From an uncultured Anaerolineae bacterium (lineage in GTDB: Bacteria; Chloroflexota; Anaerolineae; Fen-1058), in NCBI GenBank assembly GCA_964550855.1, contig CAZKBQ010000009.1, positions 6,009-70,008 of the forward strand: a stretch of 64,000 bases of DNA, written 5' to 3'. The notes under the pieces are model-generated. The model was given only the letters and a program-made list of their open reading frames with translations, was not told the DNA's origin and did no database searches. The translations under genes were made by a program, and so were the position numbers. This document shows, piece after piece, positions 7,690 to 61,499 of the stretch (position 1 is the stretch's first letter; every line of letters starts with the position of its first letter).

Positions 7690-9282
7690 GTGACTCACCC
7701 GTTGCAAACGTTCATCGACGATTACACGGCCCAGTTGGCCCCCCTGCTCACCGCGCGCAACCTGGCCTCGTGGCGGTTCTCCACGCAGGGCGACGCAACC
7801 GCACAGGCCGAATATGCCCGCCTCAGCACCGAGCTACGCCTGCTGCACGCCGACGCCGACCGCTTCGCGCGGCTCAAGGCGCTCTCGGCATCGCCCAGCG
7901 GCGACGCGCTGCTGGACCGGCAGGCGCAGTTGGCTCGTTACAGCTTCCAGTCGCAGCAGATGCCGCGCGATCTGATCGAGCAGATCGTGGCGCTGGAGAC
8001 GGAGATCGAGGCCGAGTTCAACGCCTATCGCGGCGTCATCGACGGACGCACCTACACCGACAACGAACTCAAGGCCCTGCTGCGCGACTCCAACGATGTG
8101 GCCCTGCGGCGGGCGGCCTGGGAAGCCAGCAAGCAGATCGGCGCGCAGGTGGCCGGGCGCGTGTTGAAGACAGTGGCCCTGCGTAATCAGGCCGCCCGCG
8201 CCATGGGCTTCGACAACTTCTACACCATGAGCCTGGCATTACAGGAGTTGGACGAAGCGCAGTTGTTCGATCTGTTTGATCGTCTGGAGCAGCTGACCCG
8301 CCCCTTGTTTGCCGCTTACAAAGCCGATCTCGATCGCCGGTTGGCCGATCGGTTTGGAATCCAACCCGATCGGCTGCGCCCCTGGCACTACGCCGATCCG
8401 TTCTTCCAGGAAGTGCCCGCCGATCCCGAACTCGACCTCGATCGCTTCTACGCGGATCAAGACGTGGTGGCGCTGACGCAGCAGTTCTATCAGGCCATCG
8501 GCCTGCCCATCGAAGACATCATCGCGCGCAGCGATTTGTACGAGCGGCCCGGCAAGTACCAACACGCCTATTGCGAAGACATGGATCGAGCGGGCGACGT
8601 GCGAGTCGTGTGCAACGTGCAGCCCAACGAATACTGGCTCAGCACGATGCTGCACGAGTACGGGCATGCCGTATACTTCAAGTATCTGGACTCGACGCTG
8701 CCGTTTTTACTGCGCGATCCCGCGCACACACTGAGCACCGAAGCGGTGGCGATGTTAATGGGCCGCCTCAGCGCCAACGGCGACTGGCTCAAGCGCTACG
8801 TCGGCGCGGCACCCGGTGAGATCGCGCAACTCGAAGGCCGCCTCGCCGCGCAGCAGCACGCCTCGCTGCTGGTCTTTACGCGCTGGGCGTTGACGATGTG
8901 CCACTTCGAGCGCGAACTGTATCGCGATCCACAGCAGGACTTGAACACGTCGTGGTGGAACCTTGTCGAAAAGTACCAGCTGGTCAGGCGCCCCGACGAT
9001 CGCCGCGCGCCCGATTGGGCCGCCAAAATTCATCTGGCGTGCTACCCGGCATATTATCAAAACTACATGCTGGGCGAGATGACGGCCTCGCAGCTGCTGG
9101 AATACATCACGCAGCGCGTGCTGAACGGCGAACGTGCGCGCTTTGTGGACAGCCCGCAAGTAGGCACGTATTTGAAAGAACGCTTCTTTCAGTTGGGCGC
9201 GCGCTTCGATTGGAACGGCGCGTTGAAAGCGGCCACCGGTGAAGAATTAAAGCCGGAGTATTTTGCCAGGCACCTGTCGTGA
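7690..9282 (+). CDS. Gluzincin zinc metallopeptidase (M2/M3-like peptidyl-dipeptidase / oligoendopeptidase)
   Basis: 530 aa with a GTG start behind a strong RBS. HEYGHAVY (HExxH) is followed about 25 aa later by STEAVAM (third-ligand Glu). The overall helical composition is typical of M2/M3 enzymes. Confidence 0.85.
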   Translation: MTHPLQTFIDDYTAQLAPLLTARNLASWRFSTQGDATAQAEYARLSTELRLLHADADRFARLKALSASPSGDALLDRQAQLARYSFQSQQMPRDLIEQIVALETEIEAEFNAYRGVIDGRTYTDNELKALLRDSNDVALRRAAWEASKQIGAQVAGRVLKTVALRNQAARAMGFDNFYTMSLALQELDEAQLFDLFDRLEQLTRPLFAAYKADLDRRLADRFGIQPDRLRPWHYADPFFQEVPADPELDLDRFYADQDVVALTQQFYQAIGLPIEDIIARSDLYERPGKYQHAYCEDMDRAGDVRVVCNVQPNEYWLSTMLHEYGHAVYFKYLDSTLPFLLRDPAHTLSTEAVAMLMGRLSANGDWLKRYVGAAPGEIAQLEGRLAAQQHASLLVFTRWALTMCHFERELYRDPQQDLNTSWWNLVEKYQLVRRPDDRRAPDWAAKIHLACYPAYYQNYMLGEMTASQLLEYITQRVLNGERARFVDSPQVGTYLKERFFQLGARFDWNGALKAATGEELKPEYFARHLS

Positions 9283-9385: not shown

Positions 9386-10171
9386 ATGGCCTACACCACC
9401 ATCCTGTACGACGTGGCCGACGGCGTTGCCACGCTGACGTTCAATCGGCCCGAAGTGCGCAACGCCTTCAACGACCTGATGGCCGAAGAGGTGCAAGCCG
9501 CCCTCAAAGCCGCCGAGCGTGACGAAGCGGTGCGCTGCCTCGTGATCACGGGTGCAGGGACGGGTTTCTGCGCCGGACAGGATTTGGCCGCCATCCAGGC
9601 GCGCGGCGATGACGCTTCATTCCGCGATCATCTGCTGAAGACCTACAACCCCATCGTGCTAAAGCTGCGCACCATCGAGAAGCCCGTCATCGCCGCCGTC
9701 AACGGTGCGGCGGCGGGCGCGGGCTGGGGCATGGCGCTGGCCTGCGATCTGCGCTACGCGGCCGAGAGCGCCAAATTCCGCTTTGCGTTTACGGGCATCG
9801 GCCTCACCGCCGATTCGGGCACATCGTTCTTTCTGCCCCGGCTGGTCGGCCTGGGCAAAGCGCTGGAACTGGCCTATACCAACGCCGTCGTCGATGCGAA
9901 TACGGCCCTATCGTTAGGGCTGATCAACGGCGTATTCGCGCCCGATCGGTTGATGCCGGCCACTTTGGACCTGGCCCGCCAATTGGCGCAGGCCCCCACG
10001 CGCGGCCTGGGTCTGACCAAGCGCGCCATGAATCACGCCCTCAACGTCGATCTGGCCGACGCGCTGGATTACGAAGCGCATTTGCAAGAGATCGCGGGCC
10101 GCACGGCGGATTATCGCGAAGGCGTGCAAGCCTTCCTCGAAAAACGCGCGCCCCGTTTCGCGGGAAAATGA
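9386..10171 (+). CDS. Enoyl-CoA hydratase/isomerase (crotonase) family protein
   Basis: 261 aa. LTFNRPEVRNAFN, GAGTGFCAGQDL and AAVNGAAAGAG oxyanion-hole segments. GGAG RBS upstream. Confidence 0.9.
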   Translation: MAYTTILYDVADGVATLTFNRPEVRNAFNDLMAEEVQAALKAAERDEAVRCLVITGAGTGFCAGQDLAAIQARGDDASFRDHLLKTYNPIVLKLRTIEKPVIAAVNGAAAGAGWGMALACDLRYAAESAKFRFAFTGIGLTADSGTSFFLPRLVGLGKALELAYTNAVVDANTALSLGLINGVFAPDRLMPATLDLARQLAQAPTRGLGLTKRAMNHALNVDLADALDYEAHLQEIAGRTADYREGVQAFLEKRAPRFAGK

Positions 10172-10179
10172 CCCCTGCT

Positions 10180-10251
10180 CAATGACAAATGACAAAACCC
10201 CATGGGGGCGCTTGCGTCATTTGTCATTGGTCGTTTTTCATTGGCCATTGG
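10180..10251. repeat. Inverted heptanucleotide-repeat element (AATGACA / TGTCATT type) with central CCCCATGGGG palindrome
   Basis: CAATGACAAATGAC (10180-10193) is the perfect reverse complement of GTCATTTGTCATTG (10216-10229). The loop contains the palindrome CCCCATGGGG (10198-10207). Further units GTCGTTT TTCATTG GCCATTG follow. Confidence 0.85.
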
Positions 10252-10259
10252 AGATTGCC

Positions 10260-10925
10260 ATGGAAACCACCTGGCGTCCGGTGCTGATCGCCGAAACCGA
10301 AAAGCCTTACTGGAAGCCCTTGCAGCAATTTGTGCGCGACGAGCGCAGCAAATACCAGGTCTTTCCGCCGGACAAGGAAGTCTTTGCTGCGCTGCACCTC
10401 ACGCCTTACGAAAAGGTCAGCGTGCTGATCTTAGGGCAGGACCCTTATCACGGCCCCGGCCAGGCGCACGGCCTGTGCTTCTCGGTGCGGCCCGGCGTGG
10501 ACGTGCCGCCGTCGCTGGTCAACATCTTCAAGGAACTGCACGACGATCTGGGCTGCAAAATTCCGAATCACGGCAACCTGACGCACTGGGCCGAGCAGGG
10601 CGTGCTGCTGCTCAACGCCGTGCTGACGGTGCGCGCCCATCAGGCCAACTCGCACGCCGGCAAAGGCTGGGAGAACTTTACCGACGCCGTCATCCGCGCG
10701 GTCAGCGCCAAACCCGATCGGGTGGTCTTTGTCCTGTGGGGCGCATACGCGCGCAAGAAGAAGCCGCTCATCGACATTTCGCGGCACGTCATCATCGAAT
10801 CGGCGCACCCGTCGCCGCTGTCGGCTGCCAACGGCTTCTTTGGCAGCCGCCCGTTCTCCAAGATCAACGCCGCGTTGCGCGAGGCCGGCAAGCCGGAGAT
10901 CGACTGGCAGATACCGGATATGTAA
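10260..10925 (+). CDS. ung: Uracil-DNA glycosylase, family 1
   Basis: 221 aa from ATG 10260; the 10182 start would translate the repeat element. Motifs GQDPYHGPGQAHGLCFSV and ESAHPSPLSA. Confidence 0.9.
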   Translation: METTWRPVLIAETEKPYWKPLQQFVRDERSKYQVFPPDKEVFAALHLTPYEKVSVLILGQDPYHGPGQAHGLCFSVRPGVDVPPSLVNIFKELHDDLGCKIPNHGNLTHWAEQGVLLLNAVLTVRAHQANSHAGKGWENFTDAVIRAVSAKPDRVVFVLWGAYARKKKPLIDISRHVIIESAHPSPLSAANGFFGSRPFSKINAALREAGKPEIDWQIPDM

Positions 10926-10998
10926 CGAGTAACCAGTAACGAGTTATCAACGGGCGGCGGTTGTGCCTTACGCCTTGCTCGTTACACATTACTCATTA
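10922..10998. repeat. Inverted heptanucleotide-repeat element (GTAACGA x4 / TTACTCR x5)
   Basis: GTAACGA GTAACCA GTAACGA GTTATCA, a GC-rich spacer, then TTACGCC TTGCTCG TTACACA TTACTCA TTA. It overlaps the ung stop and ends at the hbd RBS (TTAGAGG). Confidence 0.85.
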
Positions 10999-11007
10999 GA
11001 GGTCGGC

Positions 11008-11862
11008 ATGGACATCATCGGCATTCTGGGCGCAGGCACCATGGGCGCGGGCATCGCGCAGGTGGCCGCCAGCCACGGGCACAACGTGGTGCTGTACGAC
11101 GTGCAGGCGCAGTTCGCCCAGCGCGGCCTGGATCGCATCCGCCGCGAGCTGGAGCGCGCCGTCAAGAAGAGCCGCCTCACGCCGCAGGACATGGACGCCA
11201 CGCTGTCACACCTGTGGACGACAACCGATCTGTCCGATCTGCATACAGCTACCATCGTGATTGAAGCCGTGCCCGAAGACCTGGCGCTGAAACGCGACAT
11301 CTTCCGCTCGCTCGATCACCTGTGCTGCCCGGAAACGATCCTGTGCTCCAACACCTCGTCGCTGTCCATCGCCGCGCTGGCCGGCGTCACGGAACGGGCC
11401 GATCGGGTGGCCGGCCTGCACTTCTTCAACCCCGCGCCGGTCATGCCGCTAATCGAAGTCGTGCGCGCCGATTACACGTCCGATGAAACGATCAGCCACC
11501 TGCTCGATCTGGCGCGCCGTTGGGGCAAGACGCCCATCGTGGTCAGAGACACGCCGGGCTTCATCGTCAATCGGGTGGCGCGGCCGTTTTACGCCGAAGC
11601 GCTGCGCCTGCTCGATCATCATGTGGCCGATCCGGCTACAATCGATCGCATCGCGCGGGCGGCCGGCTTCAAGCTGGGGCCGTTTGAGCTGCTGGATCTG
11701 ATCGGGTTGGACGTGAACTTCGCCGTGACGCAGTCGATCTACAACGCGTTCTTTCAAGAACCGCGCTTCAAGCCGCATCCCATCCAGCAGCGCATGGTCG
11801 AAGCGAAGCGGCTGGGCCGCAAGACCGGCCACGGCTTCTACGACTATCCCGCCGAAAAGTAA
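11008..11862 (+). CDS. hbd: 3-hydroxybutyryl-CoA / 3-hydroxyacyl-CoA dehydrogenase
   Basis: 284 aa from ATG 11008. GAGTMGAGIA Rossmann loop, NTSS, HFFNPAPVMPLIE (catalytic His), and a C-terminal GRKTGHGFYDY dimerisation domain. Confidence 0.9.
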   Translation: MDIIGILGAGTMGAGIAQVAASHGHNVVLYDVQAQFAQRGLDRIRRELERAVKKSRLTPQDMDATLSHLWTTTDLSDLHTATIVIEAVPEDLALKRDIFRSLDHLCCPETILCSNTSSLSIAALAGVTERADRVAGLHFFNPAPVMPLIEVVRADYTSDETISHLLDLARRWGKTPIVVRDTPGFIVNRVARPFYAEALRLLDHHVADPATIDRIARAAGFKLGPFELLDLIGLDVNFAVTQSIYNAFFQEPRFKPHPIQQRMVEAKRLGRKTGHGFYDYPAEK

Positions 11863-16275: not shown

Positions 16276-17061
16276 ATGTCGCCTCGAGCTGTCGGCTCCA
16301 AAGTCCTCCTCGTCGGTGAACCGCCGCTGATCGACGATCTGTCCGCGCTGTGCGTGGACGCCGGCCACGAAGTGGCGGTCCACGTGCTCGAAGGCGTGAT
16401 CGAGGGGGACAGTCTGCGCCGATTGGCCGACGATGCGAAGACGGCCCGTTTCGCCATCGACGGCGTGATCGAATCGCTGGCAACCAAGCGCGACGTTGTG
16501 CGCGTCCTCGACCAATCGCTACCCGCCGATGCGCCGATCTTGAGCGCGGCGCTGTCCGTGACCGCCACGCAGATCGGCGCGTGGGCGCGTCAGCCCGATT
16601 GGATCGTGGGTTTTGGCGCGCTGCCGCCCCTGTCGCGCGGCGGCCTCGTGGAACTGGCCGCCGGGCTGGAAACAGACCCATCGACGCTGGGCAAAGCCCA
16701 AAGTTTCTTTCAGTCGCTGGGACTGGAAACCGCCATCGTCCAGGACAGCGTGGGGTTGGTGCTGCCGCGCATCGTGTGCTGCCTGGTGAATGAGGCCAGC
16801 TACGCGCTGCTGGAAGGCGTGGCGTCGCCCAACGACATCGACATCGCCATGCAGCTGGGCACCAACTATCCGCGCGGGCCGCTGGCCTGGGGCGATCTGA
16901 TCGGCCTAGATATTGTGCTGGCCGTGCTGCGCGGCCTGTTTGACGAATACGGCGACGATCACTATCGACCGTCGCCGCTGCTCAAGCAGTTGGTGCGCGC
17001 CGGCCGGCTGGGCCAGAAGACCGGTCGCGGTTTTTACGAATACGCCGGTAATCGCGCCTAG
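16276..17061 (+). CDS. 3-hydroxyacyl-CoA dehydrogenase-like protein with degenerate NAD and catalytic motifs
   Basis: 261 aa. The C-terminal domain is well conserved ([43 protein letters not shown]). The Gly-rich loop reads LLVGEPPL, and the HFFNP catalytic-His segment reads GFGALPP (compare the bona fide paralog at 11008-11862). Confidence 0.8.
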
Positions 17062-29066: not shown

Positions 29067-31256
29067 TCAGCGCACGGTCGCGGGCAGGAACAGGGCGTGA
29101 GATAGCGGAAGCGCCTGCACCACGTTGGATGTATCCAGCGCCGTCGGGCCGGTACTCATCGCCTGCACGGTAACCGTGTATGGCAGACCGTCAGTCAGAC
29201 CAGTCAGCATCAGGCCGGCTGCTAAGCCGACTTCGATGGTCGTCCCTTCGTTAGGCGGGGCGGCGTCGGCAGAAGGTTCTACTGTCACGAGGTAATGATC
29301 GACCTGGGCGGCCAGGTGCGGCTCGGTCAGCCATGAAGCATACAGCCGCCCATGGCCGACGGGGGCAGCCACCAGAACCATCGGCAAGTATTCATCTGCG
29401 CCGATATCGGGCGGCGCCAACAATGTCCGAGATTCACCGTCGATGTCGATGGTCAGTCCGCTGCCTACCGCCGCGTCGCGCGCCGCAGACCGGCCAAAGA
29501 TGTGATAGTCAAAATCGGGCGCGCCAGGCGATACAAAATTCGCCGTGCCGGTAATCATCGTCTCCAGCCCCGTTATCACGCCGCGATAGGCGACGTTGAT
29601 GTTGGTTTCGGGAAATTGATTGTTGCTCCACAAGCCGCGGGTCAGAGTAACGATCGATCCGGGCTGCACGTGGAGGGCGTGCCCTGCACCGATGTGTTCG
29701 ATGCCGCCTGCATGATCGGCAAACAATGTGTAATCGAACACCACGCGCGACTCCGGCATGGTGGGCTTGACGGGGCCAATCACGATGGCGCCCGGCGCAA
29801 ACAGGCCGTCGCTAACGGTGTTGCCGGCGATGGTGGTATGCGAGATTACACCGGCCATGCCTTGAAGCCACAGACCGCCGCCACCGCCGCCATAGATCGT
29901 ACCGGTGATGGCCAACAGGGCGTGGTTGGAGCCGATGATGCTGTTTTTGAGGATGACGTTGCCAAAGACTGGATCGAAGTGCGTAAAGGCCAATCCACCG
30001 CCGCCCACCGGCCCCCGATAGTAACCGCCGTTGCCGCCGCGCGCCACATTGTTGACAACCAGCGCTCGATCCATGGCGACATTAGCATCATCGGATTGCA
30101 GCGCGCCGCCTTCGGCAATGGCCGCGCCCGGCGTTGGATTAAGGCCGTCGCCGCCCTGCGCCAGATTATCGCGCAGTACGGTATCCACGTATTGAGCCTG
30201 GCCGTGTTCAAGGTAGAACGCCCCGCCGAAGGCGCCGCCGGCATCCCCGTTGGGCGCATTGCCGCCCAGCGCCCGATTGCCGATGGCCGTAACGTGAGAG
30301 AAGTTGGCCACGGAGCCGTTGTAGAACGCGGCCGCGCCGCCCTGCGCGTCGGCGTAGAGGTAGTATTGAAAAGAATCGAACCACTCGCGGCCGGAGCCGT
30401 TGGTGTCGCCGGCCTGCGCCAGATTGTTGGTAAACGTGACGTACGAGGCGCTGACGATGACGCTGTAGACGTGCAGCGCGCCGCCCACTGCCACGCCGCC
30501 CAGGTTTTGGCCGCGCCCACCTTGCGCCACGTTGTCCTCGAATCGCACGTTTTCCAGCAGGTTGAAAGTGGGCGGCGACAGGTAATTGCTCATCGATAAA
30601 GCGGCGCCCACCGCCCGCCCGCCGATGGTCATATCCACCGCGCCGCCCTGCGCGCGGTTGTTGCGGAAGATCAGATTGCGCAGCGTGAGCGATGAATAGA
30701 CCGACTGTATGGCGCCCCCGTAAGCGGAAGTCTCGACTATCGAGCCGTAGTACACGCCTGCTGCCAGGCAGTTTTGCAGGATGAAGCCTTCCAGGCGCAG
30801 GGCCGAACTCTTAACCAGGATACCGCGATTCTCGCCTCCACCGTCGATGATAGTGGGATAGCGCTCCCAATCGGCAGTCGTCCAGTCATCGCCTGAGTAT
30901 CCGCCCAAAATCGTGAGGTCTTTCTTGTTGATACACAATACCGCCGTGGTGTAGCCCAAGTCATAGCATTTGACCTGATTGGGTGGCAGCCGGTACGTGC
31001 CCTGCGCCACCAGGATTGTATCGCCGGAAACCGCGCGGGTGAGGGCGTAGCTGATCGATCGACAGGGCATCTCAGGCGAGCCACAATCTCGATCGTCAAG
31101 GCCGGTGGTCGAAACGCGAATCGTGCCGGTGCCGCGTTGTGACGCGACGGGCGGCACGCTGGAAGTCAAGAGCATCAGCGCAGCGCCAATCATCATGCCC
31201 GCCAGGAAAGGGCGGAACGATCGGGAATGCCAGAAGAGCGTCAGGAGGGTTTTCAA
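29067..31256 (-). CDS. Secreted right-handed parallel beta-helix protein (choice-of-anchor-Q-like) with C-terminal Fn3-like domain
   Basis: 729 aa if it starts at TTG 31256 (ATG 31196 is the alternative). Signal anchor present. N-terminal cap CGSPEMPCRSISYALTRAVSGDTILVAQGTY. Many Gly/Asn-rich beta-helix coils (NN.A.GG). DIGADEY motif, then an Fn3-like tail. Confidence 0.85.
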   Translation of the reverse strand: MKTLLTLFWHSRSFRPFLAGMMIGAALMLLTSSVPPVASQRGTGTIRVSTTGLDDRDCGSPEMPCRSISYALTRAVSGDTILVAQGTYRLPPNQVKCYDLGYTTAVLCINKKDLTILGGYSGDDWTTADWERYPTIIDGGGENRGILVKSSALRLEGFILQNCLAAGVYYGSIVETSAYGGAIQSVYSSLTLRNLIFRNNRAQGGAVDMTIGGRAVGAALSMSNYLSPPTFNLLENVRFEDNVAQGGRGQNLGGVAVGGALHVYSVIVSASYVTFTNNLAQAGDTNGSGREWFDSFQYYLYADAQGGAAAFYNGSVANFSHVTAIGNRALGGNAPNGDAGGAFGGAFYLEHGQAQYVDTVLRDNLAQGGDGLNPTPGAAIAEGGALQSDDANVAMDRALVVNNVARGGNGGYYRGPVGGGGLAFTHFDPVFGNVILKNSIIGSNHALLAITGTIYGGGGGGLWLQGMAGVISHTTIAGNTVSDGLFAPGAIVIGPVKPTMPESRVVFDYTLFADHAGGIEHIGAGHALHVQPGSIVTLTRGLWSNNQFPETNINVAYRGVITGLETMITGTANFVSPGAPDFDYHIFGRSAARDAAVGSGLTIDIDGESRTLLAPPDIGADEYLPMVLVAAPVGHGRLYASWLTEPHLAAQVDHYLVTVEPSADAAPPNEGTTIEVGLAAGLMLTGLTDGLPYTVTVQAMSTGPTALDTSNVVQALPLSHALFLPATVR

Positions 31257-31277
31257 GGGCCTCGATTATATTCACAC

Positions 31278-31317
31278 AAAAAAAATCGACCTGTCAGGCG
31301 ATTCTGACAGGTCGATT
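31278..31317 (-). terminator. Rho-independent terminator of 31353-33503
   Basis: 14-bp stem AATCGACCTGTCAG / CTGACAGGTCGATT. On the minus strand it is followed by TTTTTTTT. Confidence 0.8.
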
Positions 31318-31352
31318 GTAGGTCAAGACTCGACCAGGGTCAAGCGTTGATT

Positions 31353-33503
31353 TTAGCGAAAAGTACCGGGCAGTCTTACCGCATATGGATACGGTGTGGC
31401 CGGGGTCGCATTGGAGCTGTCCAGCAGCGTATTGGAACTGTTGTAAGCCGCCAGCGTGAAGACATATTCCCGACCGTTGGTTAAGCCGGTCAAAGTCAGC
31501 GTCGATTTCAGGCCAACGTTGATCGTCGAGCCTTGAGCGGGCGGCGTGGCGCCGGGCGGCGTGACGACCGTGATGACGTAGTGATGGGTGCTGGCGGCCA
31601 GCAGATCGTTGGTCAGCCAGCTGAGTGTGATGCGACCGCTGCCGGTGGGGGCCGCGCCGAACACAAACGGGATATACTCGTCGGCACCGATGTCGGCCGG
31701 CGCAAATTCCGTGCGCGATTCGACATCCAGGTCCACCTGGTCGTCGCTATCCACGGCCTGGTTGCGCGCGGCCGAGTTGCCCAGGATATGATAGTTGTAG
31801 TCGGGCGCGCCCGGCGACGCGAAGCGGGCGGCGCCGCTGAGCATGGTGCCCAGACCGTTGATGGTGCCTGCCGCGTAACCGCCGCTGTTGGTGTTGAGCG
31901 TGTTGTTGCTCCACAGGCCGCGCTTCAGGTTGATGGTGCTGCCCGCCTGAACATAGACCGCGCCGCTGCCGCCGGTGTGATCGGCAATGATCAGGTAATT
32001 GGCGTTAACGGTGGTGCCCGCGGCCGGCCCATACGGCCCGATGACCACTATCCCTGATCCGACCAGCCCACTATCGACGGTGTTGCGCGCCAGCGTCGAA
32101 TGGGTGAGATTAACCGTCAACCCTTGCAACCACAATCCGCCGCCGCCGCCGCCCTGTAGCTGCCCGGTCGTGGCCAGCTGTACACGATTGTCGGCAATGA
32201 TGCTGTTATTGACGTTGATCGTGAAATTGGAGGATTCAATACCGGTGAACGAAGCGCCACCGCCGCCCGCCGGCCCTTTGTACACGGTTCCATTGCCGCC
32301 GCGCACGGTGTTGTTGATGATGGTCACTCGCTCCAGCGTGATATTGGCATCATCGCTGTGAAACGCCCCGCCTTCGGCCAGGCCGCCCGCGCCGGCAGCG
32401 GTGTTCGCACCGTCGCCGCCCTGGACCAGATTGTCACGCAATTCGGCATCGCGCAACGTTGTGTTGGCGTGTTCCACATAGAAGGCCCCGCCAAACGCCG
32501 CGCCCGATGTCCCGTTGGGTGTATTGCCGCCGAAAACCTGGTTGCCTGTGGCGGTCACGTACTGAAAATCGCCGACGGAATCGTTGTAGATCGACACGGC
32601 GCCGCCCTGCGCATCAGAATAGATGTAACCGCCCAGACCGCTGCCGTTGGATGAACCCGACTGCGCCACGTTGCCGGTGAAGGTGAGGCGCCGGCCGGTC
32701 ACATACACCCGATAAGCGTGCATGGCCCCGCCGATGGCATTGCCGCCGCGCTGCACGCCGGTGCCGCCGATTGCCGAGTTGTTCTCAAAGACCACATTGT
32801 CCAGCCAGACGTTGTACGGCGTCGTTCCGAAATTGTTGAACGCTAAGGCCGCGCCTACAGCGCTCCCGCCATATTCCAGATTGGTGTTACCGCCACGCGC
32901 CTGGTTGTGGCGGAAGATCATGTTGCGCAGTGTGATCGGCGCGAGCGTGGCCGACATTCCGCCGCCATAGGCGTGAATCGCCAGTTCAGTACCGCTGGAT
33001 GCGCCCTGCGCCAGACCGTCCTTGATGATAAAACCTTCCACCCGATAAGTGCCGTTCTGTAGCGCCATGCCGCGATATTGGTTCTGGCCGTCAATAACGG
33101 TGAGATACCGCGCCGGATCGGCCGCCGTCCAATCGTAACCCGAATACCCGCCCAGGATCGTCAGGTCTTTGCCGTTCACACACACCACTGCGCTGGTCAC
33201 ACCAAAGTCAGGGCAGGGCGTCGTCGGCGCGCTGGCTGCATCGTACGTGTAGACCCCTTCCGCCACCAGCACCGTGTCGCCCGACAGCGCGCGGCGGGTG
33301 CCATACTGGACTGTGCGGCACGGATTCTGCTCGGAGCCGCAGCTCTGATCATTCTGCCCCCACGGAGCCACCCGCACGATGCCGGTTCCGCGCTGCGCAT
33401 ATGAGATCGGTGTGTTGACGCTCAACGCGGCGGTCAGCAAACTGACCACCATTCCAACGATGGCGATTCTTGATAAGGTGTATTTGGGTGCTCTGGTATT
33501 CAT
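31353..33503 (-). CDS. Secreted right-handed parallel beta-helix protein (paralog of 29067-31256)
   Basis: 716 aa from ATG 33503 (MNTRAPKYTLSRIAIVGMVVSLLTAAL). CGSEQNPCRTVQYGTRRALSGDTVLVAEGVY cap. Colinear with its neighbour (roughly half the residues identical by eye), including GGGGGGLWLQG and DIGADEY. Confidence 0.85.
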   Translation of the reverse strand: MNTRAPKYTLSRIAIVGMVVSLLTAALSVNTPISYAQRGTGIVRVAPWGQNDQSCGSEQNPCRTVQYGTRRALSGDTVLVAEGVYTYDAASAPTTPCPDFGVTSAVVCVNGKDLTILGGYSGYDWTAADPARYLTVIDGQNQYRGMALQNGTYRVEGFIIKDGLAQGASSGTELAIHAYGGGMSATLAPITLRNMIFRHNQARGGNTNLEYGGSAVGAALAFNNFGTTPYNVWLDNVVFENNSAIGGTGVQRGGNAIGGAMHAYRVYVTGRRLTFTGNVAQSGSSNGSGLGGYIYSDAQGGAVSIYNDSVGDFQYVTATGNQVFGGNTPNGTSGAAFGGAFYVEHANTTLRDAELRDNLVQGGDGANTAAGAGGLAEGGAFHSDDANITLERVTIINNTVRGGNGTVYKGPAGGGGASFTGIESSNFTINVNNSIIADNRVQLATTGQLQGGGGGGLWLQGLTVNLTHSTLARNTVDSGLVGSGIVVIGPYGPAAGTTVNANYLIIADHTGGSGAVYVQAGSTINLKRGLWSNNTLNTNSGGYAAGTINGLGTMLSGAARFASPGAPDYNYHILGNSAARNQAVDSDDQVDLDVESRTEFAPADIGADEYIPFVFGAAPTGSGRITLSWLTNDLLAASTHHYVITVVTPPGATPPAQGSTINVGLKSTLTLTGLTNGREYVFTLAAYNSSNTLLDSSNATPATPYPYAVRLPGTFR

Positions 33504-33603
33504 TTGCCCGCTCCAATTTTCTAACCTTTGTAAACAACCACGACACAAGTCTAACCTTATGATACACCGACCTCAATAGAGAGGAAGTCATGTTGAGGCG
33601 ATC

Positions 33604-57195: not shown

Positions 57196-57933
57196 ATGAA
57201 CATCCTCGTGACCAATGACGACGGCGTCACCGCCCCCGGACTTTTGATCTTGAAGCAGGCGCTGGAAAAAGTAGGCGTGGTGGTGGTGGTGGCGCCTGAT
57301 CAAAACTGGAGTGCGGGCGGCCACGTCAAGACGCTGCACAAGCCGCTGCGCCTGAGCGAAGTCAAACTGGCCGACGGCAGCGACGCCTACGCCAGCAGCG
57401 GCGCGCCCAGCGATTGTGTGGCGCTGGTGCTACTGGGCGCCATCAACTTCAAGCCCGATCTCATCGTGTCCGGCATCAATCCCTTCGCCAACCTGAGCCA
57501 CGACGTAACCTACTCGGGCACGGTGACGGCCGCCATGGAAGGCGCGCTGGAAGGCATTCCATCGATCGCGGTGTCGGTGGACGATGCCGCCGCGTACGAG
57601 CAGGCCGCCGATTTTGCCGCGCGGCTGGCACGCATCACCGCCGAACACGGCCTGCCGCGCAACATCCTGCTCAACGTCAACGTGCCGGCCGGCCCCATCA
57701 AAGGCGTGCAGATTACGCGGCTGGGCACGCGCGTCTATCACGACGAACTCGTCGCCCGCATCGATCCGCGCGGCAAACCCTATTACTGGATCGGCGGCGC
57801 GGCCCCCACCGGCATCCCCGACGACGGCACCGACGTGGGCGCCCTGAGCCACGGCTATATCTCCGTGACGCCCATTCAAATGGATATGACCGCCTACCAG
57901 TTCATGGAGACCTTGGGAACGTGGGAGATGTAG
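57196..57933 (+). CDS. surE: 5-prime/3-prime-nucleotidase SurE
   Basis: 245 aa from ATG 57196 (AGGAG RBS at 57186-57190). MNILVTNDDGVTAPGL and YSGTVTAAMEG motifs. Confidence 0.9.
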   Translation: MNILVTNDDGVTAPGLLILKQALEKVGVVVVVAPDQNWSAGGHVKTLHKPLRLSEVKLADGSDAYASSGAPSDCVALVLLGAINFKPDLIVSGINPFANLSHDVTYSGTVTAAMEGALEGIPSIAVSVDDAAAYEQAADFAARLARITAEHGLPRNILLNVNVPAGPIKGVQITRLGTRVYHDELVARIDPRGKPYYWIGGAAPTGIPDDGTDVGALSHGYISVTPIQMDMTAYQFMETLGTWEM

Positions 57934-57942
57934 TCCGGCTGA

Positions 57943-58212
57943 TCGACACCTGGATGTATTTCCCCAAACACAGTCAGTTTGCCTGCCAGCCTATGGGGCG
58001 GCTCCACGATCAGCGGCTTTCGCAAGCGGGGGCTGTATACGGCGCTGCTGGCCGTGCGCGCGCAAGAAGCCAACGCGCGCGGGGTGCGCTACCTGACCGT
58101 GAACGCCAGCGCTATGAGCCGCCCGATTCTGGAGAAGTTCGGGTTTGAGGTGATAGCCTATTCCCATCCGTGCAAATGGATATTCAAGGCCACTGAACCC
58201 CGCGCGGAGTAA
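57943..58212 (+). pseudogene. Truncated GNAT acetyltransferase remnant (C-terminal half only)
   Basis: The open frame is only ~89 codons. It retains the acetyl-CoA motif-A-like region GFRKRGLYTALLAVRAQEANARGVRYLTVNAS...FGFE but has no N-terminal beta-strands. No plausible RBS or ATG is present (the ORF-track start is TTG 57979). Confidence 0.4.
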
Positions 58213-58245
58213 GGCCGGCGCGCGCTTCGCAGCGGATTTTTGCGG

Positions 58246-58274
58246 TTGACAGCGCCTGATCGCTCAAGTATATT
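58246..58274 (+). promoter_or_regulatory. Candidate sigma-70 promoter for the HMG-CoA reductase-like gene
   Basis: TTGACA (58246-58251), 17-nt spacer, TATATT (58269-58274). GGGGGAG RBS at 58336-58342. Confidence 0.5.
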
Positions 58275-58349
58275 TGTCGCACATCAGCGGGGGCGCAATG
58301 CTGTCGTCGCTTCAGCCCTTCGCCTTCAGCCTTCACAGGGGGAGCCGCC

Positions 58350-59891
58350 ATGATCATTCCGAGCATGCTGCTGAAGAAGCTGTACACACTGGGCAGCCTC
58401 AAGAACACCGAGGCGGGGGTGCAATTTTCCATCAAGAATCGCCTGAGCGATGTGGAACTGATCGGGCTGCGCGCCATTTACATCAACGGCACACCCGTCG
58501 CGCTTGATCACGTATCGCTCATCCTGGCCGATGGGCAGCGCCTCTCGCCCTACGAGATCTCGGCGGCGCGCCCGCTGGCCTTTCCGCTGCGCGCGGTCGT
58601 CACCATCCAGACTCCGCTGCCCGCGCTGCCACTGGGCAAACACGAGATCGAGATCGTCTTTGAAACCCGCGCCTTTGGCAAACTCCAGTTCAAAGTCGAA
58701 GACGCCATCTCTGAAAAAGAGCCGGAGCAGGTCAAGATTCCGCGCGACACTGCCGACGACTACAGCCCCGAGATCATCCAGCGGCGGCAGGCGTTGATCG
58801 AACAGTTCACCGGCACGCAGCCCGTGCATCTGTGGAAGTACTCGTTCGATCCGCACGTCACCAAAGGCAACATCGAAAACTTCACCGGCGCGGCGCAGAT
58901 CCCGATCGGCTTTGCCGGCCCGATACGCATCAACGGCGAGCACGCCATCGGCGATTTCCTGATCCCCCTCGCCACCACCGAAGGCACGCTGGTCGCCTCG
59001 TACAACCGCGGCATGAAGATCACCAACCTCAGCGGCGGCGTCAAAGTCACCGTGGTGGCCGACGCCATGCAGCGCGCGCCCGTCTTTGTCTTTGAGGACG
59101 CCCGCGCCGCCCGCGACTTCGCCGCGTGGGTGCAGGCCAATTTCGACGCGATCAAAGAAGAAGCCGAGGCCACCTCCAGTGTCGCCAAGCTCTTCAACAT
59201 CGACTCGTATCTGTCCAACAAGTTTGCCTATCTGCGCTTCAACTACACCACCGGCGATGCCGCCGGCCAGAACATGGTGGGCCGCGCCACCTTTGCCGCG
59301 TGCAGCTGGATCATCGATCACTACGCGGGCATCACCAATTTCTATCTGGAGTCCAACTTCGCCACGGACAAGAAGGCGTCGCAGATCAACATCATGCGCA
59401 CGCGCGGCAAGCGCGTCACCGCCGAAGCCACCATCTTGCGCGATGTGCTCATTCAGCACATGCGCGTGGAGCCGGAGAAGTTGTTCTATCATTACGGCGT
59501 CGCCAACATCGGCGGCTTTTTGTCCGGCGTCAACAACAACGGCTTGCATTCGGCCAACGGCATCACCGCCATGTTCATCGCCACCGGCCAGGACGTGGCC
59601 AACGTGGCCGAATCGTCGGCGGGCCTGATGTACACCGAGCTCACACCCAGAGGCGATCTGTACATGTCGCTGACCATTCCCTCGCTCATCGTGGCCACGC
59701 ACGGCGGCGGAGTGGGCCTTCCGACGCAGCGCGAGTGTTTGGAGATTCTGGGCTGCGTGGGGCGCGGCAAAGTCAATCGGCTGGCCGAGATCATCGCGGC
59801 CGTGGCGCTGGCCGGCGAAATCTCGCTGGCTTCGGCCATCTCGTCGTCCGACTGGGTATCGAGCCATGAAAAGTACGGGCGCAATCGCTGA
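58350..59891 (+). CDS. Class I HMG-CoA reductase homolog with ~125-aa extra N-terminal domain
   Basis: 513 aa. IENFTGAAQIPIGFAGP, IPLATTEGTLVAS, TGDAAGQNMV, ATDKKAS, ATGQDVANV and THGGGVG match class I HMGR blocks. Residues 1-125 (beta-rich) lie outside the HMGR fold. Confidence 0.9.
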   Translation: MIIPSMLLKKLYTLGSLKNTEAGVQFSIKNRLSDVELIGLRAIYINGTPVALDHVSLILADGQRLSPYEISAARPLAFPLRAVVTIQTPLPALPLGKHEIEIVFETRAFGKLQFKVEDAISEKEPEQVKIPRDTADDYSPEIIQRRQALIEQFTGTQPVHLWKYSFDPHVTKGNIENFTGAAQIPIGFAGPIRINGEHAIGDFLIPLATTEGTLVASYNRGMKITNLSGGVKVTVVADAMQRAPVFVFEDARAARDFAAWVQANFDAIKEEAEATSSVAKLFNIDSYLSNKFAYLRFNYTTGDAAGQNMVGRATFAACSWIIDHYAGITNFYLESNFATDKKASQINIMRTRGKRVTAEATILRDVLIQHMRVEPEKLFYHYGVANIGGFLSGVNNNGLHSANGITAMFIATGQDVANVAESSAGLMYTELTPRGDLYMSLTIPSLIVATHGGGVGLPTQRECLEILGCVGRGKVNRLAEIIAAVALAGEISLASAISSSDWVSSHEKYGRNR

Positions 59892-59990
59892 CACTGCCGC
59901 CGGCCGCTAAGGCTTCTGGCGGGGCATCCTTGCCTGGGTGCTTGTCCCACCGCCCAAACCGTGGTATTCTTGCTTCTACAGCAACACGAA

Positions 59991-60018
59991 AGACCCCGCT
60001 CGTGTGGACGCGGGGTCT
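59991..60018 (+). terminator. Possible terminator hairpin downstream of the HMGR-like gene
   Basis: 9-bp stem AGACCCCGC / GCGGGGTCT with a 10-nt loop, followed by TCGATTATT (a weak T-tract). Confidence 0.35.
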
Positions 60019-60041
60019 TCGATTATTGAAAAGGTCGGAGC

Positions 60042-60734
60042 ATGAATCTCGAACAGATCGTTCAAACCTTTGGCTACGCAGGCATTATCGGGATCATCTT
60101 TGCCGAGTCGGGGCTGTTCTTCGGCTTCTTTCTGCCGGGCGACAGTCTGCTGTTGACGGCCGGCTTGCTGGCCTGGCGCATCGACCCGGCCACGGGCCAT
60201 CCGTTCTTGAGCCTGCCGTTTCTACTGATCGCGCTGCCGATTGCGGCGATCCTGGGCGACAACGTGGGCTACTGGTTTGGCAAGAAGACCGGGCCGCGCA
60301 TCTTCAACCGCGAGAATTCGCGCCTGTTCAAGCGCAAAAATCTGCTGGCCGCCAAGGCCTTCTACGACAAGCACGGCGCCAAAACGATCGTGCTGGCGCG
60401 CTTCGTGCCGTTCATCCGCACGTTCGCGCCGATCGTGGCCGGCGCGGTCGAGATGGAGTACCGCACCTTCTTCAGGTGGAACGTGCTGGGCGGCATGATG
60501 TGGGCGGTGGGCGTGACGCTGGTGGGCTACGGCATCGGCACGTTCTTTGGCGCCACAGTTGATCCGGAGACGCTGGACAAGTACTTCCTGCTGCTGATCA
60601 TCGCCGTGATCTTCATCTCGGCGCTGCCGACGTTGATTCACCTGTGGCGCGACAACAAAGACGAAATCCTGCGGCGGCTGCGCCGCCAGCCTGCCCCTCC
60701 GGCCGCGTCTTCAAGAAAAGCGGCGGAGGAATGA
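60042..60734 (+). CDS. DedA family membrane protein
   Basis: 230 aa. FAESGLFFGFFLPGDSLLLTAG, GPRIFNRE...AKAFYDKHGAKTIVLARFVPFIRTFAP signature. Confidence 0.9.
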   Translation: MNLEQIVQTFGYAGIIGIIFAESGLFFGFFLPGDSLLLTAGLLAWRIDPATGHPFLSLPFLLIALPIAAILGDNVGYWFGKKTGPRIFNRENSRLFKRKNLLAAKAFYDKHGAKTIVLARFVPFIRTFAPIVAGAVEMEYRTFFRWNVLGGMMWAVGVTLVGYGIGTFFGATVDPETLDKYFLLLIIAVIFISALPTLIHLWRDNKDEILRRLRRQPAPPAASSRKAAEE

Positions 60735-60827: not shown

Positions 60828-61499
60828 ATGGCTGAATTGATGGAACACACGCGCATCCTCATCGAACAGGTGATCCTGGCACTGGGGTATCCCGGCATCG
60901 TGCTGGTGATGATGCTGGAGAATCTGTTCCCGCCCATTCCATCGGAATTGGTGATGCCGCTGGCCGGGTTCCTGGCCGGGCGCGGGCAGGCCGATTTTGT
61001 GGCGATCTGGGCGGCGGGGACGCTGGGCGCAGTGCTGGGGGCGCTGGCCTTGTATGCCGTGGGCTACTGGGCCGATTCGTATGTGCTGCGCCGATTGCTG
61101 CGTCGCTATGGCCGCTGGCTGCAGGTGGATGAAACCGATCTCGATCGGGTGTTGGCGGCCTTCAAGCGCTACGGCGAGGCGCTGGTGTTGTTCGGGCGGC
61201 TGCTGCCGCTGGTGCGCAGTCTGATCTCGCTGCCGGCCGGCATGTGCCGCATGCCAATGGGCAAATTCCTGATCTTCACGACCATCGGCGCGGGGCTGTG
61301 GAACGGCGCACTGGCCGGCGTGGGCCTGGTGCTGGGCGCGCAATGGATGCAGGTGTTGGAGTTTGTGCGCCGCTATGAAACGCTGACGCTGGGCGCACTG
61401 GCATTAGCCGGCGCAGCCGTCGTGGCCCTGTGGCTGATGCGCTGGCGGCGCCGACAGCTGGCAGCAGTGGCCGAGACGATTGAGATCGCCGAAGATTAA
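60828..61499 (+). CDS. DedA family membrane protein (second, divergent copy)
   Basis: 223 aa with a GGGGGAGG RBS. MLENLFPPIPSELVMPLAG, FKRYGEALVLFGRLLPLVRSLISLPAG. Confidence 0.9.
   Translation: MAELMEHTRILIEQVILALGYPGIVLVMMLENLFPPIPSELVMPLAGFLAGRGQADFVAIWAAGTLGAVLGALALYAVGYWADSYVLRRLLRRYGRWLQVDETDLDRVLAAFKRYGEALVLFGRLLPLVRSLISLPAGMCRMPMGKFLIFTTIGAGLWNGALAGVGLVLGAQWMQVLEFVRRYETLTLGALALAGAAVVALWLMRWRRRQLAAVAETIEIAED

What the first reader, a model, noticed from the sequence alone, without database searches (positions are those of the whole stretch)
58350..59891. HMG-CoA reductase homolog with an extra N-terminal beta-rich domain and Asp at the catalytic-His position
Residues ~130-513 align block by block with class I HMGR, as recalled from the human and archaeal enzymes.

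Conserved blocks:
- IENFTG..IPIGFAGP
- ATTEG (catalytic Glu)
- TDKK (catalytic Lys)
- HSANG (Asn)
- TGQDVAN (Asp)
- THGGGVG

In the C-terminal flap the canonical ...[19 protein letters not shown]... reads ...AGEISLASAISSSDWVSSH.... An ungapped alignment therefore puts Asp where the general-acid His sits. That His protonates the departing CoA thiolate.

In addition, the first ~125 residues (MIIPSMLLKKLYTLGSLKNTEAGVQFSIKN...KLQFKVEDAI) form a separate beta-rich domain. The soluble archaeal and bacterial class I enzymes I know lack this domain.

The gene has its own near-consensus promoter, and no other mevalonate-pathway gene lies in the window. It could be a functional HMGR with a shifted catalytic residue, or an enzyme with altered chemistry or substrate, or a regulated variant.
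Basis: partly seen in the sequence, partly recalled or inferred. Interest (0 to 1): 0.7.

Follow-up and report, generated by a model that had tools for sequence, protein, structure and literature searches.

The report
FcrA fatty acyl-CoA reductase, mislabelled HMGR
This gene looks like the cholesterol-pathway enzyme HMG-CoA reductase but belongs to a published sister family (FcrA) that turns long-chain fatty acyl-CoA into fatty alcohol, and its catalytic histidine is intact, so the reported anomaly is a mis-assigned residue.

Summary
The ORF 58350-59891 (+), 513 aa, is real. It has two domains: a beta-sandwich (residues 7-121, Pfam PF25653) and a class-I HMGR-like core (143-511, PF00368).

The headline claim is wrong. 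Ungapped alignment to human HMGR puts D501 opposite His861, which is not catalytic. The general-acid His866 aligns with H506 (VSSH). H506 is invariant in relatives, as are E211, K341 and D415.

The real differences lie elsewhere: E334 for Ser684, V384/A385 for Lys735, and W502 for Leu862. These are the substitutions that Grossi et al. 2025 (ISME J, PMC11948995) give as hallmarks of FcrA. FcrA is an NADPH-dependent fatty acyl-CoA reductase derived from class-I HMGR. It carries the same N-terminal "Lad" domain. The version from the Chloroflexi bacterium Ca. Promineifilum breve reduces acyl-CoA of C14 or longer but not HMG-CoA.

The window protein is 70-71% identical to Promineifilum-type homologues. 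It scores below NCBIfam's HMGR equivalog cut-off. The window holds no mevalonate-pathway gene. In 11 of 77 related loci a wax-ester synthase gene lies nearby.

Verdict: a member of an already described family, of low interest. One side result is that the Lad domain is related to the beta subunit of C-glycoside deglycosidases.

The parts
58246..58274 (+). Sigma-70-type promoter-like site, TTGACA-17 nt-TATATT, about 75 nt upstream of the start codon
   Evidence: 11 of 12 matches. It is the only such site in 57900-60100, against 0.7 expected in shuffles, so it is suggestive but not proof.
58337..58344 (+). Shine-Dalgarno-like AGGGGGAG, 5 nt before the ATG
   Evidence: Read directly from the sequence.
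58350..59891 (+). fcrA-type gene: 513-aa HMGR-like fatty acyl-CoA reductase (stop codon included)
   Evidence: The exact protein is present in public collections, where relatives are labelled 'hydroxymethylglutaryl-CoA reductase'.
58368..58712 (+). N-terminal beta-sandwich domain (residues 7-121). It is Pfam PF25653 HMG-CoA_red_N, the 'Lad' long-chain alkyl carrier domain of FcrA.
   Evidence: E 8e-38. AF2 pLDDT 91.4, pTM 0.83; best PDB matches are the beta subunits of C-glycoside deglycosidases, TM 0.71; the paper's description of Lad.
58713..58775 (+). Linker (residues 122-142), variable at first and then a conserved PRD..DDY motif
   Evidence: for conservation; low pLDDT from about residue 125. 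The paper describes an unstructured linker.
58776..59882 (+). Class-I HMGR-like catalytic core (residues 143-511)
   Evidence: PF00368, E 8.6e-127; 6hr7, E 3.4e-81; about 38-39% identity to 6hr7 and 31-34% to human HMGR.
58980..58982 (+). E211, equivalent of the catalytic Glu559
   Evidence: alignment; invariant.
59349..59351 (+). E334, replaces the HMG-binding Ser684 (an FcrA hallmark; Glu360 in N. pharaonis FcrA)
   Evidence: 'ylESNfatdkk' against 'avSGNyctdkk'. Invariant. Described in the paper.
59370..59372 (+). K341, equivalent of the catalytic Lys691
   Evidence: invariant.
59499..59504 (+). V384-A385, the position of the HMG-carboxylate-binding Lys735. No Lys is present here (an FcrA hallmark; Gly411 in N. 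pharaonis).
   Evidence: Lys aligns to V384 in the human and Methanothermococcus alignments and to A385 in the Arabidopsis alignment. Both residues are invariant.
59592..59594 (+). D415, equivalent of the catalytic Asp767
   Evidence: invariant.
59850..59852 (+). It aligns with the non-catalytic His861.
   Evidence: The same column is Gln in Arabidopsis HMG1.
59853..59855 (+). W502, replaces Leu862 (an FcrA hallmark; Trp528 in N. pharaonis FcrA)
   Evidence: invariant; described in the paper.
59865..59867 (+). H506 (codon CAT), equivalent of the catalytic general acid His866
   Evidence: ungapped alignment, numbering verified; invariant; sequence read.
59987..60027 (+). Terminator-like hairpin with an AUUAUU tail, between fcrA and the next gene (dedA-like, start at 60042)
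   Evidence: -22.8 kcal/mol, z = -3.68, 0 of 200 shuffles fold as well. The scan missed it.

Best explanation
The gene encodes an FcrA-type fatty acyl-CoA reductase. FcrA is an enzyme that evolved from class-I HMG-CoA reductase and keeps its fold, its NADPH-dependent four-electron thioester-to-alcohol chemistry, and its catalytic residues.

Catalytic residues kept: Glu211, Lys341 and Asp415, with Asn403 at the Asn755 position. His506 on the C-terminal helix acts as the general acid for the leaving CoA thiolate.

HMG pocket rebuilt:
- Glu334 replaces Ser684.
- Val384/Ala385 replace Lys735, which removes the salt bridge to the HMG carboxylate.
- Trp502 replaces Leu862.

The result is that long unbranched acyl-CoA (C14 or longer in the characterised homologue) is reduced to fatty alcohol, and HMG-CoA is not a substrate.

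The fused N-terminal beta-sandwich ('Lad') is an accessory module tethered by a flexible linker. It is proposed to hold or deliver the alkyl chain.

The gene is probably transcribed on its own: promoter-like site, SD-like sequence, terminator-like hairpin.

What is shown here: the domain architecture, the residue mapping, the family relationship, and the genomic context.

What is taken from the literature: the activity of the homologue.

What is inferred: that this orthologue has the same activity, that the alcohol feeds wax esters, and what the N-terminal domain does.
For: - Domains: PF25653 plus PF00368.
- Residue map: E211=E559, K341=K691, N403=N755, D415=D767, H506=H866, E334=S684, V384/A385=K735, W502=L862. 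All are invariant in 20 and 76 relatives.
- These are the hallmarks listed for FcrA by Grossi et al. 2025. N. pharaonis numbering is offset by a constant 26 (25 for the Glu).
- Pb-FcrA from a Chloroflexi bacterium was shown to use NADPH, to reduce acyl-CoA of C14 or longer, not to reduce HMG-CoA, and not to be inhibited by statin.
- The window protein is 70-71% identical to Promineifilum-type homologues, with an identical C-terminal motif. It is only about 31-39% identical to solved canonical HMGRs.
- It scores 321 bits on TIGR00533, against a cut-off of 441.8.
- No mevalonate-pathway family is present in the other 45 ORFs of the window.
- Among 77 related loci the most frequent neighbour family is WS/DGAT wax-ester synthase (11 loci). 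Acyl-CoA dehydrogenase (10), AMP-binding acyl-CoA synthetase-like (7), lipase-like hydrolase (7) and a PHA-regulator-like protein (6) follow.
Against: - No enzyme assay exists for this protein.
- The sequence of the characterised Pb-FcrA (CUS01882.1) could not be retrieved, so identity to it is inferred from same-genus homologues.
- No WS/DGAT or acyl-CoA synthetase gene lies in the 64-kb window, and the gene neighbourhood here (surE, dedA-like genes) says nothing about lipid metabolism.
- My full-length AlphaFold2 model was poor in the catalytic core (pLDDT 50.7). The pocket shape and the reach of H506 rest on sequence alignment and on the paper's AF3 models, not on a model of my own.
- Some Chloroflexi do have a mevalonate pathway, and the rest of this genome was not visible.
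Confidence: 0.85

Rival explanations
1. It is a genuine HMG-CoA reductase of a bacterial mevalonate pathway. The N-terminal domain would be a regulatory add-on, and the partner genes would lie elsewhere in the genome.
For: - Strong PF00368 match and a complete catalytic tetrad.
- Public annotation calls it hydroxymethylglutaryl-CoA reductase (NADPH).
- Some Chloroflexi are known to use a mevalonate pathway (background knowledge; the paper also marks FcrA-clade genomes that have it).
Against: - It is below the NCBIfam equivalog cut-off (321 against 441.8 bits).
- The HMG-carboxylate ligands Ser684 and Lys735 are replaced, and Leu862 is replaced by a bulky Trp.
- The characterised member with the same architecture does not reduce HMG-CoA.
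- No mevalonate-pathway gene is in the window.
- In genomes that have both, a separate canonical HMGR serves the pathway.
Confidence: 0.04
2. It is an FcrA-clade reductase, but in this organism it does not serve wax-ester synthesis. The alcohol would feed another product (for example ether lipids or glycolipids), or the enzyme would prefer a different acyl thioester from that of Pb-FcrA.
For: - No WS/DGAT gene in 64 kb.
- Only 11 of 77 related loci have WS/DGAT nearby, and these are mostly Acidobacteriota and Rhodothermales rather than Chloroflexota.
- The window is rich in envelope and glycosylation genes.
Against: - Pocket residues are identical to those of the Promineifilum-type proteins, so a different substrate class is unlikely.
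- WS/DGAT may simply lie elsewhere in the genome.
- Pb-FcrA produced wax esters when paired with a WS/DGAT.
Confidence: 0.3
3. Asp501 has taken over the general-acid role from histidine.
For: D501 is invariant in the clade and lies on the same C-terminal helix, one turn before H506.
Against: - H506 aligns without gaps to His866 and is equally invariant.
- The D501 column is His or Gln in canonical enzymes, where it has no catalytic role.
- The paper identifies the His (His532 in N. pharaonis, 4 residues after the Trp, as here) as the conserved catalytic residue.
Confidence: 0.03

Closest known systems
FcrA fatty acyl-CoA reductase (Pb-FcrA of 'Ca. Promineifilum breve', CUS01882.1; N. pharaonis FcrA), Grossi et al., ISME J 2025 (PMC11948995)
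   Same: - Two-domain architecture: Lad beta domain, linker, HMGR-like core.
- Catalytic Glu/Lys/Asp/His.
- Glu for Ser684, a small residue for Lys735, and Trp for Leu862, with the Trp-x3-His spacing.
- Chloroflexota host.
- 70-71% identity to Promineifilum-type homologues.
- WS/DGAT next to the gene in some relatives.
   Different: - Nothing structural was found that sets it apart.
- It comes from a different lineage (best genome match is a Thermoflexales/Anaerolineae MAG, 85% identity).
- No WS/DGAT gene lies in the 64-kb window.
- Its activity is untested.
Canonical class-I HMG-CoA reductase (human HMGCR catalytic portion 1DQ8/1DQA; Methanothermococcus thermolithotrophicus 6HR7; Arabidopsis HMG1 7ULI)
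   Same: - Same fold family (PF00368) and the same catalytic tetrad.
- Counterparts of the two conserved glycine-rich class-I HMGR motifs, DAAGQNM and THGGGVG (cofactor binding was not tested here).
- A C-terminal helix carrying the general-acid His.
- The same type of reaction (acyl-CoA to primary alcohol, 2 NADPH).
   Different: - Only about 31-39% identity.
- HMG-binding Ser684, Lys735 and Leu862 are replaced.
- An extra N-terminal beta-sandwich.
- Below the TIGR00533 cut-off.
- No mevalonate-pathway context.
- The characterised homologue is inactive on HMG-CoA and insensitive to simvastatin.
FarA/AcrB-type bacterial fatty acyl-CoA reductases (Rossmann-fold 'male sterility' NAD_binding_4 family)
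   Same: [quoted passage not shown]
   Different: An unrelated fold. According to the paper, FarA and AcrB also reduce free aldehyde whereas FcrA does not.
Beta subunit of C-glycoside deglycosidases (DgpB, DfgB, CarC; Pfam PF19906 CGDB; PDB 7BVR_B, 8QVC_B, 7DNM_B)
   Same: - The N-terminal domain has the same beta-sandwich fold (TM 0.69-0.72 over about 125-133 aligned columns, Foldseek E 2.6e-6).
- 16 of 50 relatives of the domain also hit PF19906 (best E 3.5e-8).
- Both are small non-catalytic partners of a catalytic domain that handles a hydrophobic substrate moiety. In CGDs the substrate cavity lies at the alpha/beta interface.
   Different: - Only 12-18% identity.
- The window's own domain does not reach PF19906 at E <= 1.
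- Here the domain is fused to an HMGR-like core, not paired with a TIM-barrel alpha subunit.
- No CGD alpha-subunit (DgpC-like sugar isomerase/epimerase, TIM-barrel) family was among the Pfam hits of the window ORFs.

Membership tests
FcrA (HMGR-derived fatty acyl-CoA reductase) | Class-I HMGR-like catalytic core | tested here: met
   PF00368, residues 143-511, E 8.6e-127. 6hr7, E 3.4e-81.
FcrA (HMGR-derived fatty acyl-CoA reductase) | Catalytic Glu559/Lys691/Asp767/His866 equivalents conserved | tested here: met
   E211, K341, D415 and H506; invariant in relatives.
FcrA (HMGR-derived fatty acyl-CoA reductase) | Bulky Trp in place of Leu862 on the C-terminal helix | tested here: met
   W502 pairs with L441 of the 1dq8 chain, which is Leu862. 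The spacing to the His is 4, as for Trp528/His532 in N. pharaonis FcrA.
FcrA (HMGR-derived fatty acyl-CoA reductase) | Glu in place of Ser684 | tested here: met
   E334 pairs with S263 of the 1dq8 chain, which is Ser684; invariant.
FcrA (HMGR-derived fatty acyl-CoA reductase) | HMG-binding Lys (printed 'Lys795' in the paper; by offset it is Lys735) replaced by a small residue | tested here: met
   Lys735 aligns to V384 or A385 depending on gap placement. There is no Lys in YHYGVANIGG.
FcrA (HMGR-derived fatty acyl-CoA reductase) | N-terminal Lad beta domain (present in many but not all FcrA) | tested here: met
   PF25653, E 8e-38. The AF2 model is an all-beta sandwich, pLDDT 91.4.
FcrA (HMGR-derived fatty acyl-CoA reductase) | Falls in the FcrA clade with the characterised Pb-FcrA (CUS01882.1) | tested here: inconclusive
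   CUS01882.1 was not retrievable. The protein is 70% identical to Candidatus Promineofilum sp. MBX7250511.1, and tblastn gives 69-70% identity to Promineifilum sp. and Promineifilaceae genome loci (L079, L027). No tree was built.
FcrA (HMGR-derived fatty acyl-CoA reductase) | Genome context: no mevalonate pathway; a WS/DGAT partner is often present | tested here: inconclusive
   The window has neither mevalonate-pathway genes nor WS/DGAT. 11 of 77 related loci have WS/DGAT within the fetched flanks (up to 10 kb each side). The rest of the genome was not available.
FcrA (HMGR-derived fatty acyl-CoA reductase) | NADPH-dependent reduction of long-chain acyl-CoA to alcohol; no activity on HMG-CoA | not testable with these tools
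   Shown for Pb-FcrA only.
Canonical class-I HMG-CoA reductase (NADPH), EC 1.1.1.34 | Reaches the NCBIfam equivalog score (TIGR00533) | tested here: not met
   321 bits against a cut-off of 441.8.
Canonical class-I HMG-CoA reductase (NADPH), EC 1.1.1.34 | HMG-moiety ligands Ser684, Lys735 and Leu862 | tested here: not met
   E334, V384/A385 and W502 instead. The three solved class-I enzymes aligned all have Ser, Lys and Leu.
Canonical class-I HMG-CoA reductase (NADPH), EC 1.1.1.34 | Catalytic His on the C-terminal helix | tested here: met
H506 = His866.
Class-II (degradative/NADH-type) HMG-CoA reductase | Reaches the TIGR00532 score | tested here: not met
   34.9 bits against a cut-off of 259.95.
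CGDB superfamily (C-glycoside deglycosidase beta subunit), N-terminal domain only | Beta-sandwich fold shared with DgpB/CarC, and sequence relationship to PF19906 | tested here: inconclusive
   The fold is shared: TM 0.69-0.72, E 2.6e-6. 16 of 50 domain relatives hit PF19906, best E 3.5e-8. The window domain itself gives no hit.
CGDB superfamily (C-glycoside deglycosidase beta subunit), N-terminal domain only | Encoded next to, and working with, a TIM-barrel alpha subunit (DgpC-like) | tested here: not met
   The domain is fused to an HMGR-like core, and no DgpC-like (sugar isomerase/epimerase, TIM-barrel) family was among the Pfam hits of the window ORFs. It is not a CGD subunit.

The most novel reading that the evidence does not exclude
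The N-terminal 'Lad' domain of FcrA is a true homologue of the beta subunit of C-glycoside deglycosidases (CGDB). On this reading it would not act as a free-swinging alkyl carrier. Instead, as in CGDs, it would dock onto the catalytic domain and complete a hydrophobic substrate cavity at the interface. Free-standing ~120-aa versions of the domain, seen as complete genes in metagenomes, would then be detachable subunits for Lad-less FcrA or for other enzymes.
Probability: 0.3. Interest if true: 0.35.

Novelty: already known. Interest (0 to 1): 0.15.

Why it matters
- **Annotation.** This protein and thousands of relatives are labelled 'hydroxymethylglutaryl-CoA reductase (NADPH)' in public databases. 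That label would wrongly suggest a mevalonate pathway in Chloroflexota, Acidobacteriota and other phyla. The correct reading is a fatty-alcohol-forming reductase linked to wax-ester and neutral-lipid metabolism. This matters for metabolic reconstruction of activated-sludge and soil bacteria and for bioprospecting for fatty-alcohol enzymes.
- **No new biology from the flagged anomaly.** The catalytic histidine is present, and the family, its extra domain and its substrate switch were published in 2025.
- **A modest addition.** The Lad domain shares its fold, and in part its sequence, with the CGD beta subunit. Stand-alone copies of the domain exist.

Tried and rejected
- **Full-length AlphaFold2 model** from 20 close homologues. 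The catalytic core was modelled poorly (mean pLDDT 50.7), so I did not use it for active-site geometry. The Foldseek search with it only recovered HMGRs, at TM about 0.2.
- **Context look-up for the window's own protein**. Nothing was on record.
- **Retrieving Pb-FcrA (CUS01882.1).** A second homologue search seeded with a Promineifilum sp. locus and cluster look-ups gave Promineifilum sp. proteins but not that accession. P0409, from a 2.9-Mb contig that I guessed might be the Ca. P. breve chromosome, turned out to be a metagenome assembly. The paper's supplement holds no sequences.
- **Conserved synteny.** No neighbour is shared by more than 11 of 77 loci, and none of the window's immediate neighbours (surE, two dedA-like genes) recurs. 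Local context says nothing about function here.
- **D501 as a substitute general acid.** Rejected on the ungapped alignment and on the variability of that column in canonical enzymes.
- **The ~120-aa hits to the N-domain as truncated genes.** Rejected for at least two of them, which are complete ORFs inside their contigs. One is followed by a gcvT-like gene, so it is not a split fcrA.
- **Literature search** for a published link between C-glycoside deglycosidases and HMGR/FcrA. None found.
Full report
**Observation.** Its third-position GC is 0.85, like the other genes of this 63.6% GC window. The antisense ORF over it has 0.58. Pfam splits the protein into two domains:
- PF25653 'HMG-CoA_red_N', residues 7-121, E 8e-38.
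- PF00368 'HMG-CoA_red', residues 143-511, E 8.6e-127.

So the homology, the motif blocks and the separate N-terminal domain are all confirmed.

**The catalytic histidine.** HMMER alignments to solved class-I enzymes run without any gap through the C-terminal helix:
- window: ...AGEISLASAISSSDWVSSHEKYGRN
- human: ...[25 protein letters not shown]

I checked the numbering by counting along the 1dq8 chain, where chain index + 421 gives the human residue number. This puts chain E138 at Glu559, S263 at Ser684, K270 at Lys691, K314 at Lys735 and L441 at Leu862. All of these are residues named in the literature. With that numbering:
- D501 pairs with His861.
- W502 pairs with Leu862.
- H506 pairs with His866.

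His866 is the general acid (PMC11948995, citing Istvan et al. 2000). The His861 column is not conserved. It is Gln in Arabidopsis HMG1 and His in Methanothermococcus. H506, E211, K341, N403 and D415 are invariant across 20 and 76 relatives.

**What the protein is.** A literature search found Grossi et al., ISME J 2025 (PMC11948995). The paper describes FcrA, a fatty acyl-CoA reductase evolutionarily derived from class-I HMGR. Many members carry an N-terminal extension of about ten beta strands joined by an unstructured linker, which the authors name Lad (long-chain alkyl carrier domain).

The enzyme from 'Ca. Promineifilum breve' (Chloroflexi) was expressed and purified. According to the paper it:
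- uses NADPH;
- reduces acyl-CoA of C14 or longer to alcohol;
- does not reduce HMG-CoA;
- is not inhibited by simvastatin.

The paper lists the marks that separate FcrA from HMGR:
- the catalytic Glu/Lys/Asp/His are kept;
- Trp replaces Leu862;
- Glu replaces Ser684;
- a small residue replaces the HMG-binding Lys. The text prints 'Lys795', but the N. pharaonis numbering (Gly411 against Lys367) identifies it as Lys735.

The window protein has every one of these marks: W502, E334 and V384/A385. For the last, the Lys falls on V384 or A385 depending on gap placement, and there is no Lys in the segment. The window residue numbers differ from the N. pharaonis FcrA numbers by a constant 26 (25 for the Glu). 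All these residues are invariant in relatives.

**Independent support.**
- NCBIfam's HMGR equivalog model TIGR00533 scores 321 bits against a cut-off of 441.8. The class-II model scores 34.9 against 259.95.
- The protein is 70% identical to a Candidatus Promineofilum sp. protein and 71% to a close relative of it, with an identical C-terminal SSDWVSSHEKYGRNR. It is about 38-39% identical to the nearest solved HMGR and 31-34% to the human enzyme.
- More than 8000 database proteins match. The best 120 all have the same two Pfam domains and are labelled HMG-CoA reductase, mostly from Anaerolineae/Chloroflexota and Bryobacteraceae.
- The closest genome hit is a Thermoflexales MAG from activated sludge, at 85%.

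**Context in the window.** I called 46 ORFs by length and GC3 and scanned the other 45 against Pfam. Nine had no hit at E <= 1e-5. None of the 45 matched a mevalonate-pathway family or WS/DGAT.
- Immediate neighbours are PBP1A and surE upstream, and two dedA/VTT-domain genes downstream.
- Further downstream, on the opposite strand, are an HTH regulator and peptide deformylase.
- A promoter-like TTGACA-17-TATATT site (11/12) lies at 58246-58274. One such hit in 2.2 kb is about what shuffles give, so it is only suggestive.
- An AGGGGGAG sits 5 nt before the ATG.
- A strong hairpin with an AUUAUU tail lies at 59987-60027 (-22.8 kcal/mol, z = -3.7).
- Together these fit a monocistronic unit.

**Context in relatives.** In 77 related loci from species-representative genomes I clustered neighbouring ORFs and scanned the recurrent families. 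The counts were:

| Neighbour family | Loci |
|---|---|
| WS/DGAT wax-ester synthase (PF03007 + PF06974) | 11 |
| Acyl-CoA dehydrogenase | 10 |
| AMP-binding acyl-CoA synthetase-like | 7 |
| ABC1 kinase | 7 |
| Lipase-like alpha/beta hydrolase | 7 |
| PHA-regulator-like protein | 6 |

This is a neutral-lipid signature. It was obtained without reference to the paper and fits the fatty-alcohol function. It comes mainly from Acidobacteriota and Rhodothermales loci, so the use of the alcohol in this Chloroflexota organism stays open.

**The N-terminal domain.**
- Modelled alone with 76 sequences, it gives a confident beta-sandwich (pLDDT 91.4, pTM 0.83).
- Foldseek against the PDB returns as its top 17 hits only C-glycoside deglycosidase structures: 15 beta-subunit chains (DgpB, DfgB, CarC-type) and two chains of the Microbacterium testaceum CGD. 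For the beta subunits TM is up to 0.72, with 113-149 aligned columns, E down to 2.6e-6 and 12-18% identity.
- The link is also visible in sequence. Of 50 diverse relatives of the domain, 16 also hit Pfam PF19906 'CGDB' (best E 3.5e-8). The window's own domain does not.
- In CGDs the beta-sandwich pairs with the catalytic TIM-barrel subunit, and the substrate cavity lies at the interface (PMC8563793).
- I found no paper connecting the two families.
- An exhaustive search with residues 1-127 found 503 clusters at 50% identity. Their lengths peak at 120-129 aa. Two of these are complete genes inside their contigs, and one is followed by a gcvT-like gene. Free-standing copies of the domain therefore exist.

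**Mechanism, and what rests on what.**
- Shown here: the architecture, the residue equivalences, the family signature, and the context.
- Taken from the paper: the activity and cofactor of the homologue, the elongated pocket in AF3 models, and the proposed Lad role.
- Inferred: this orthologue reduces long-chain acyl-CoA through a thiohemiacetal and aldehyde to the alcohol using two NADPH. H506 protonates CoA-S-. E211, K341 and D415 act as in HMGR. E334, A385 and W502 exclude HMG-CoA and favour a straight alkyl chain.

My own full-length model was too poor in the core to check geometry.

**Verdict.** This is a real gene and a clear member of a family described in 2025. It is not a new variant, and the flagged 'Asp at the catalytic His' is a register error. 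Interest is low. The useful outcomes are the corrected annotation and the side observation that Lad is related to CGDB.

Noticed in passing
window 58368-58712; PDB 7bvr_B, 8qvc_B, 7dnm_B; alignment A3: The FcrA N-terminal 'Lad' domain (PF25653) shares its fold with the beta subunit of C-glycoside deglycosidases (TM about 0.7, E 2.6e-6). 16 of 50 of its relatives also hit Pfam PF19906 CGDB (best E 3.5e-8). I found no paper linking the two families.
   Followed up: partly
L083:139-510, L084:184-552 (proteins P0260, P0186): Free-standing ~120-aa homologues of the Lad domain exist as complete genes in metagenome contigs. Lengths of hits to the domain peak at 120-129 aa. In L083 the next gene is gcvT-like, so it is not a split fcrA.
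   Followed up: partly
window 57979-58212 (+): A 77-aa ORF between surE and fcrA matches only the C-terminal half of a GNAT acetyltransferase (PF13673 positions 63-110 of 128, E 6.4e-5). It is probably a truncated remnant. The fcrA promoter-like site lies just after it.
   Followed up: partly
window 60042-60734 and 60828-61499 (+): Two tandem DedA/VTT-domain membrane protein genes lie directly downstream of fcrA on the same strand, after a terminator-like hairpin. The arrangement does not recur in the 77 related loci.
   Followed up: partly
L014, L017, L018, L020, L028, L029, L044, L052, L054, L062, L075: In these relatives (mostly Acidobacteriota and Rhodothermales), fcrA sits within the fetched flanks (up to 10 kb) of a WS/DGAT wax-ester synthase gene. 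Often an AMP-binding acyl-CoA synthetase-like gene, a lipase-like hydrolase, an ABC1 kinase and a PHA-regulator-like gene are present too. This looks like a neutral-lipid gene cluster.
   Followed up: partly
window 9386-11862 and 16276-17061 (+): Beta-oxidation-type genes: one enoyl-CoA hydratase and two 3-hydroxyacyl-CoA dehydrogenases. The second dehydrogenase matches only the latter part of the NAD-binding domain (profile positions 74-179 of 180).
   Followed up: no
window 17854-40958: A large envelope and glycosylation cluster. It includes a Bac_transf priming transferase, two GT4 and one GT2 glycosyltransferases, two PMT_2-family membrane proteins (a third lies at 1904-3460), a DUF2142 membrane protein, a Wzt-type ABC ATPase and an epimerase/dehydratase. 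Two adjacent ORFs of about 730 aa (29067-33548, - strand) have no Pfam hit.
   Followed up: no
PMC11948995, structural comparison section: The paper names the HMG-binding lysine 'Lys795'. The N. pharaonis offsets (Gly411 against Lys367) and the 1dq8 alignment show that the residue meant is human Lys735.
   Followed up: yes
window 6982-7707 (-): An HNH endonuclease-domain gene overlaps by 18 nt the start of the divergently oriented M3/M2-type peptidase gene (7690-9282).
   Followed up: no
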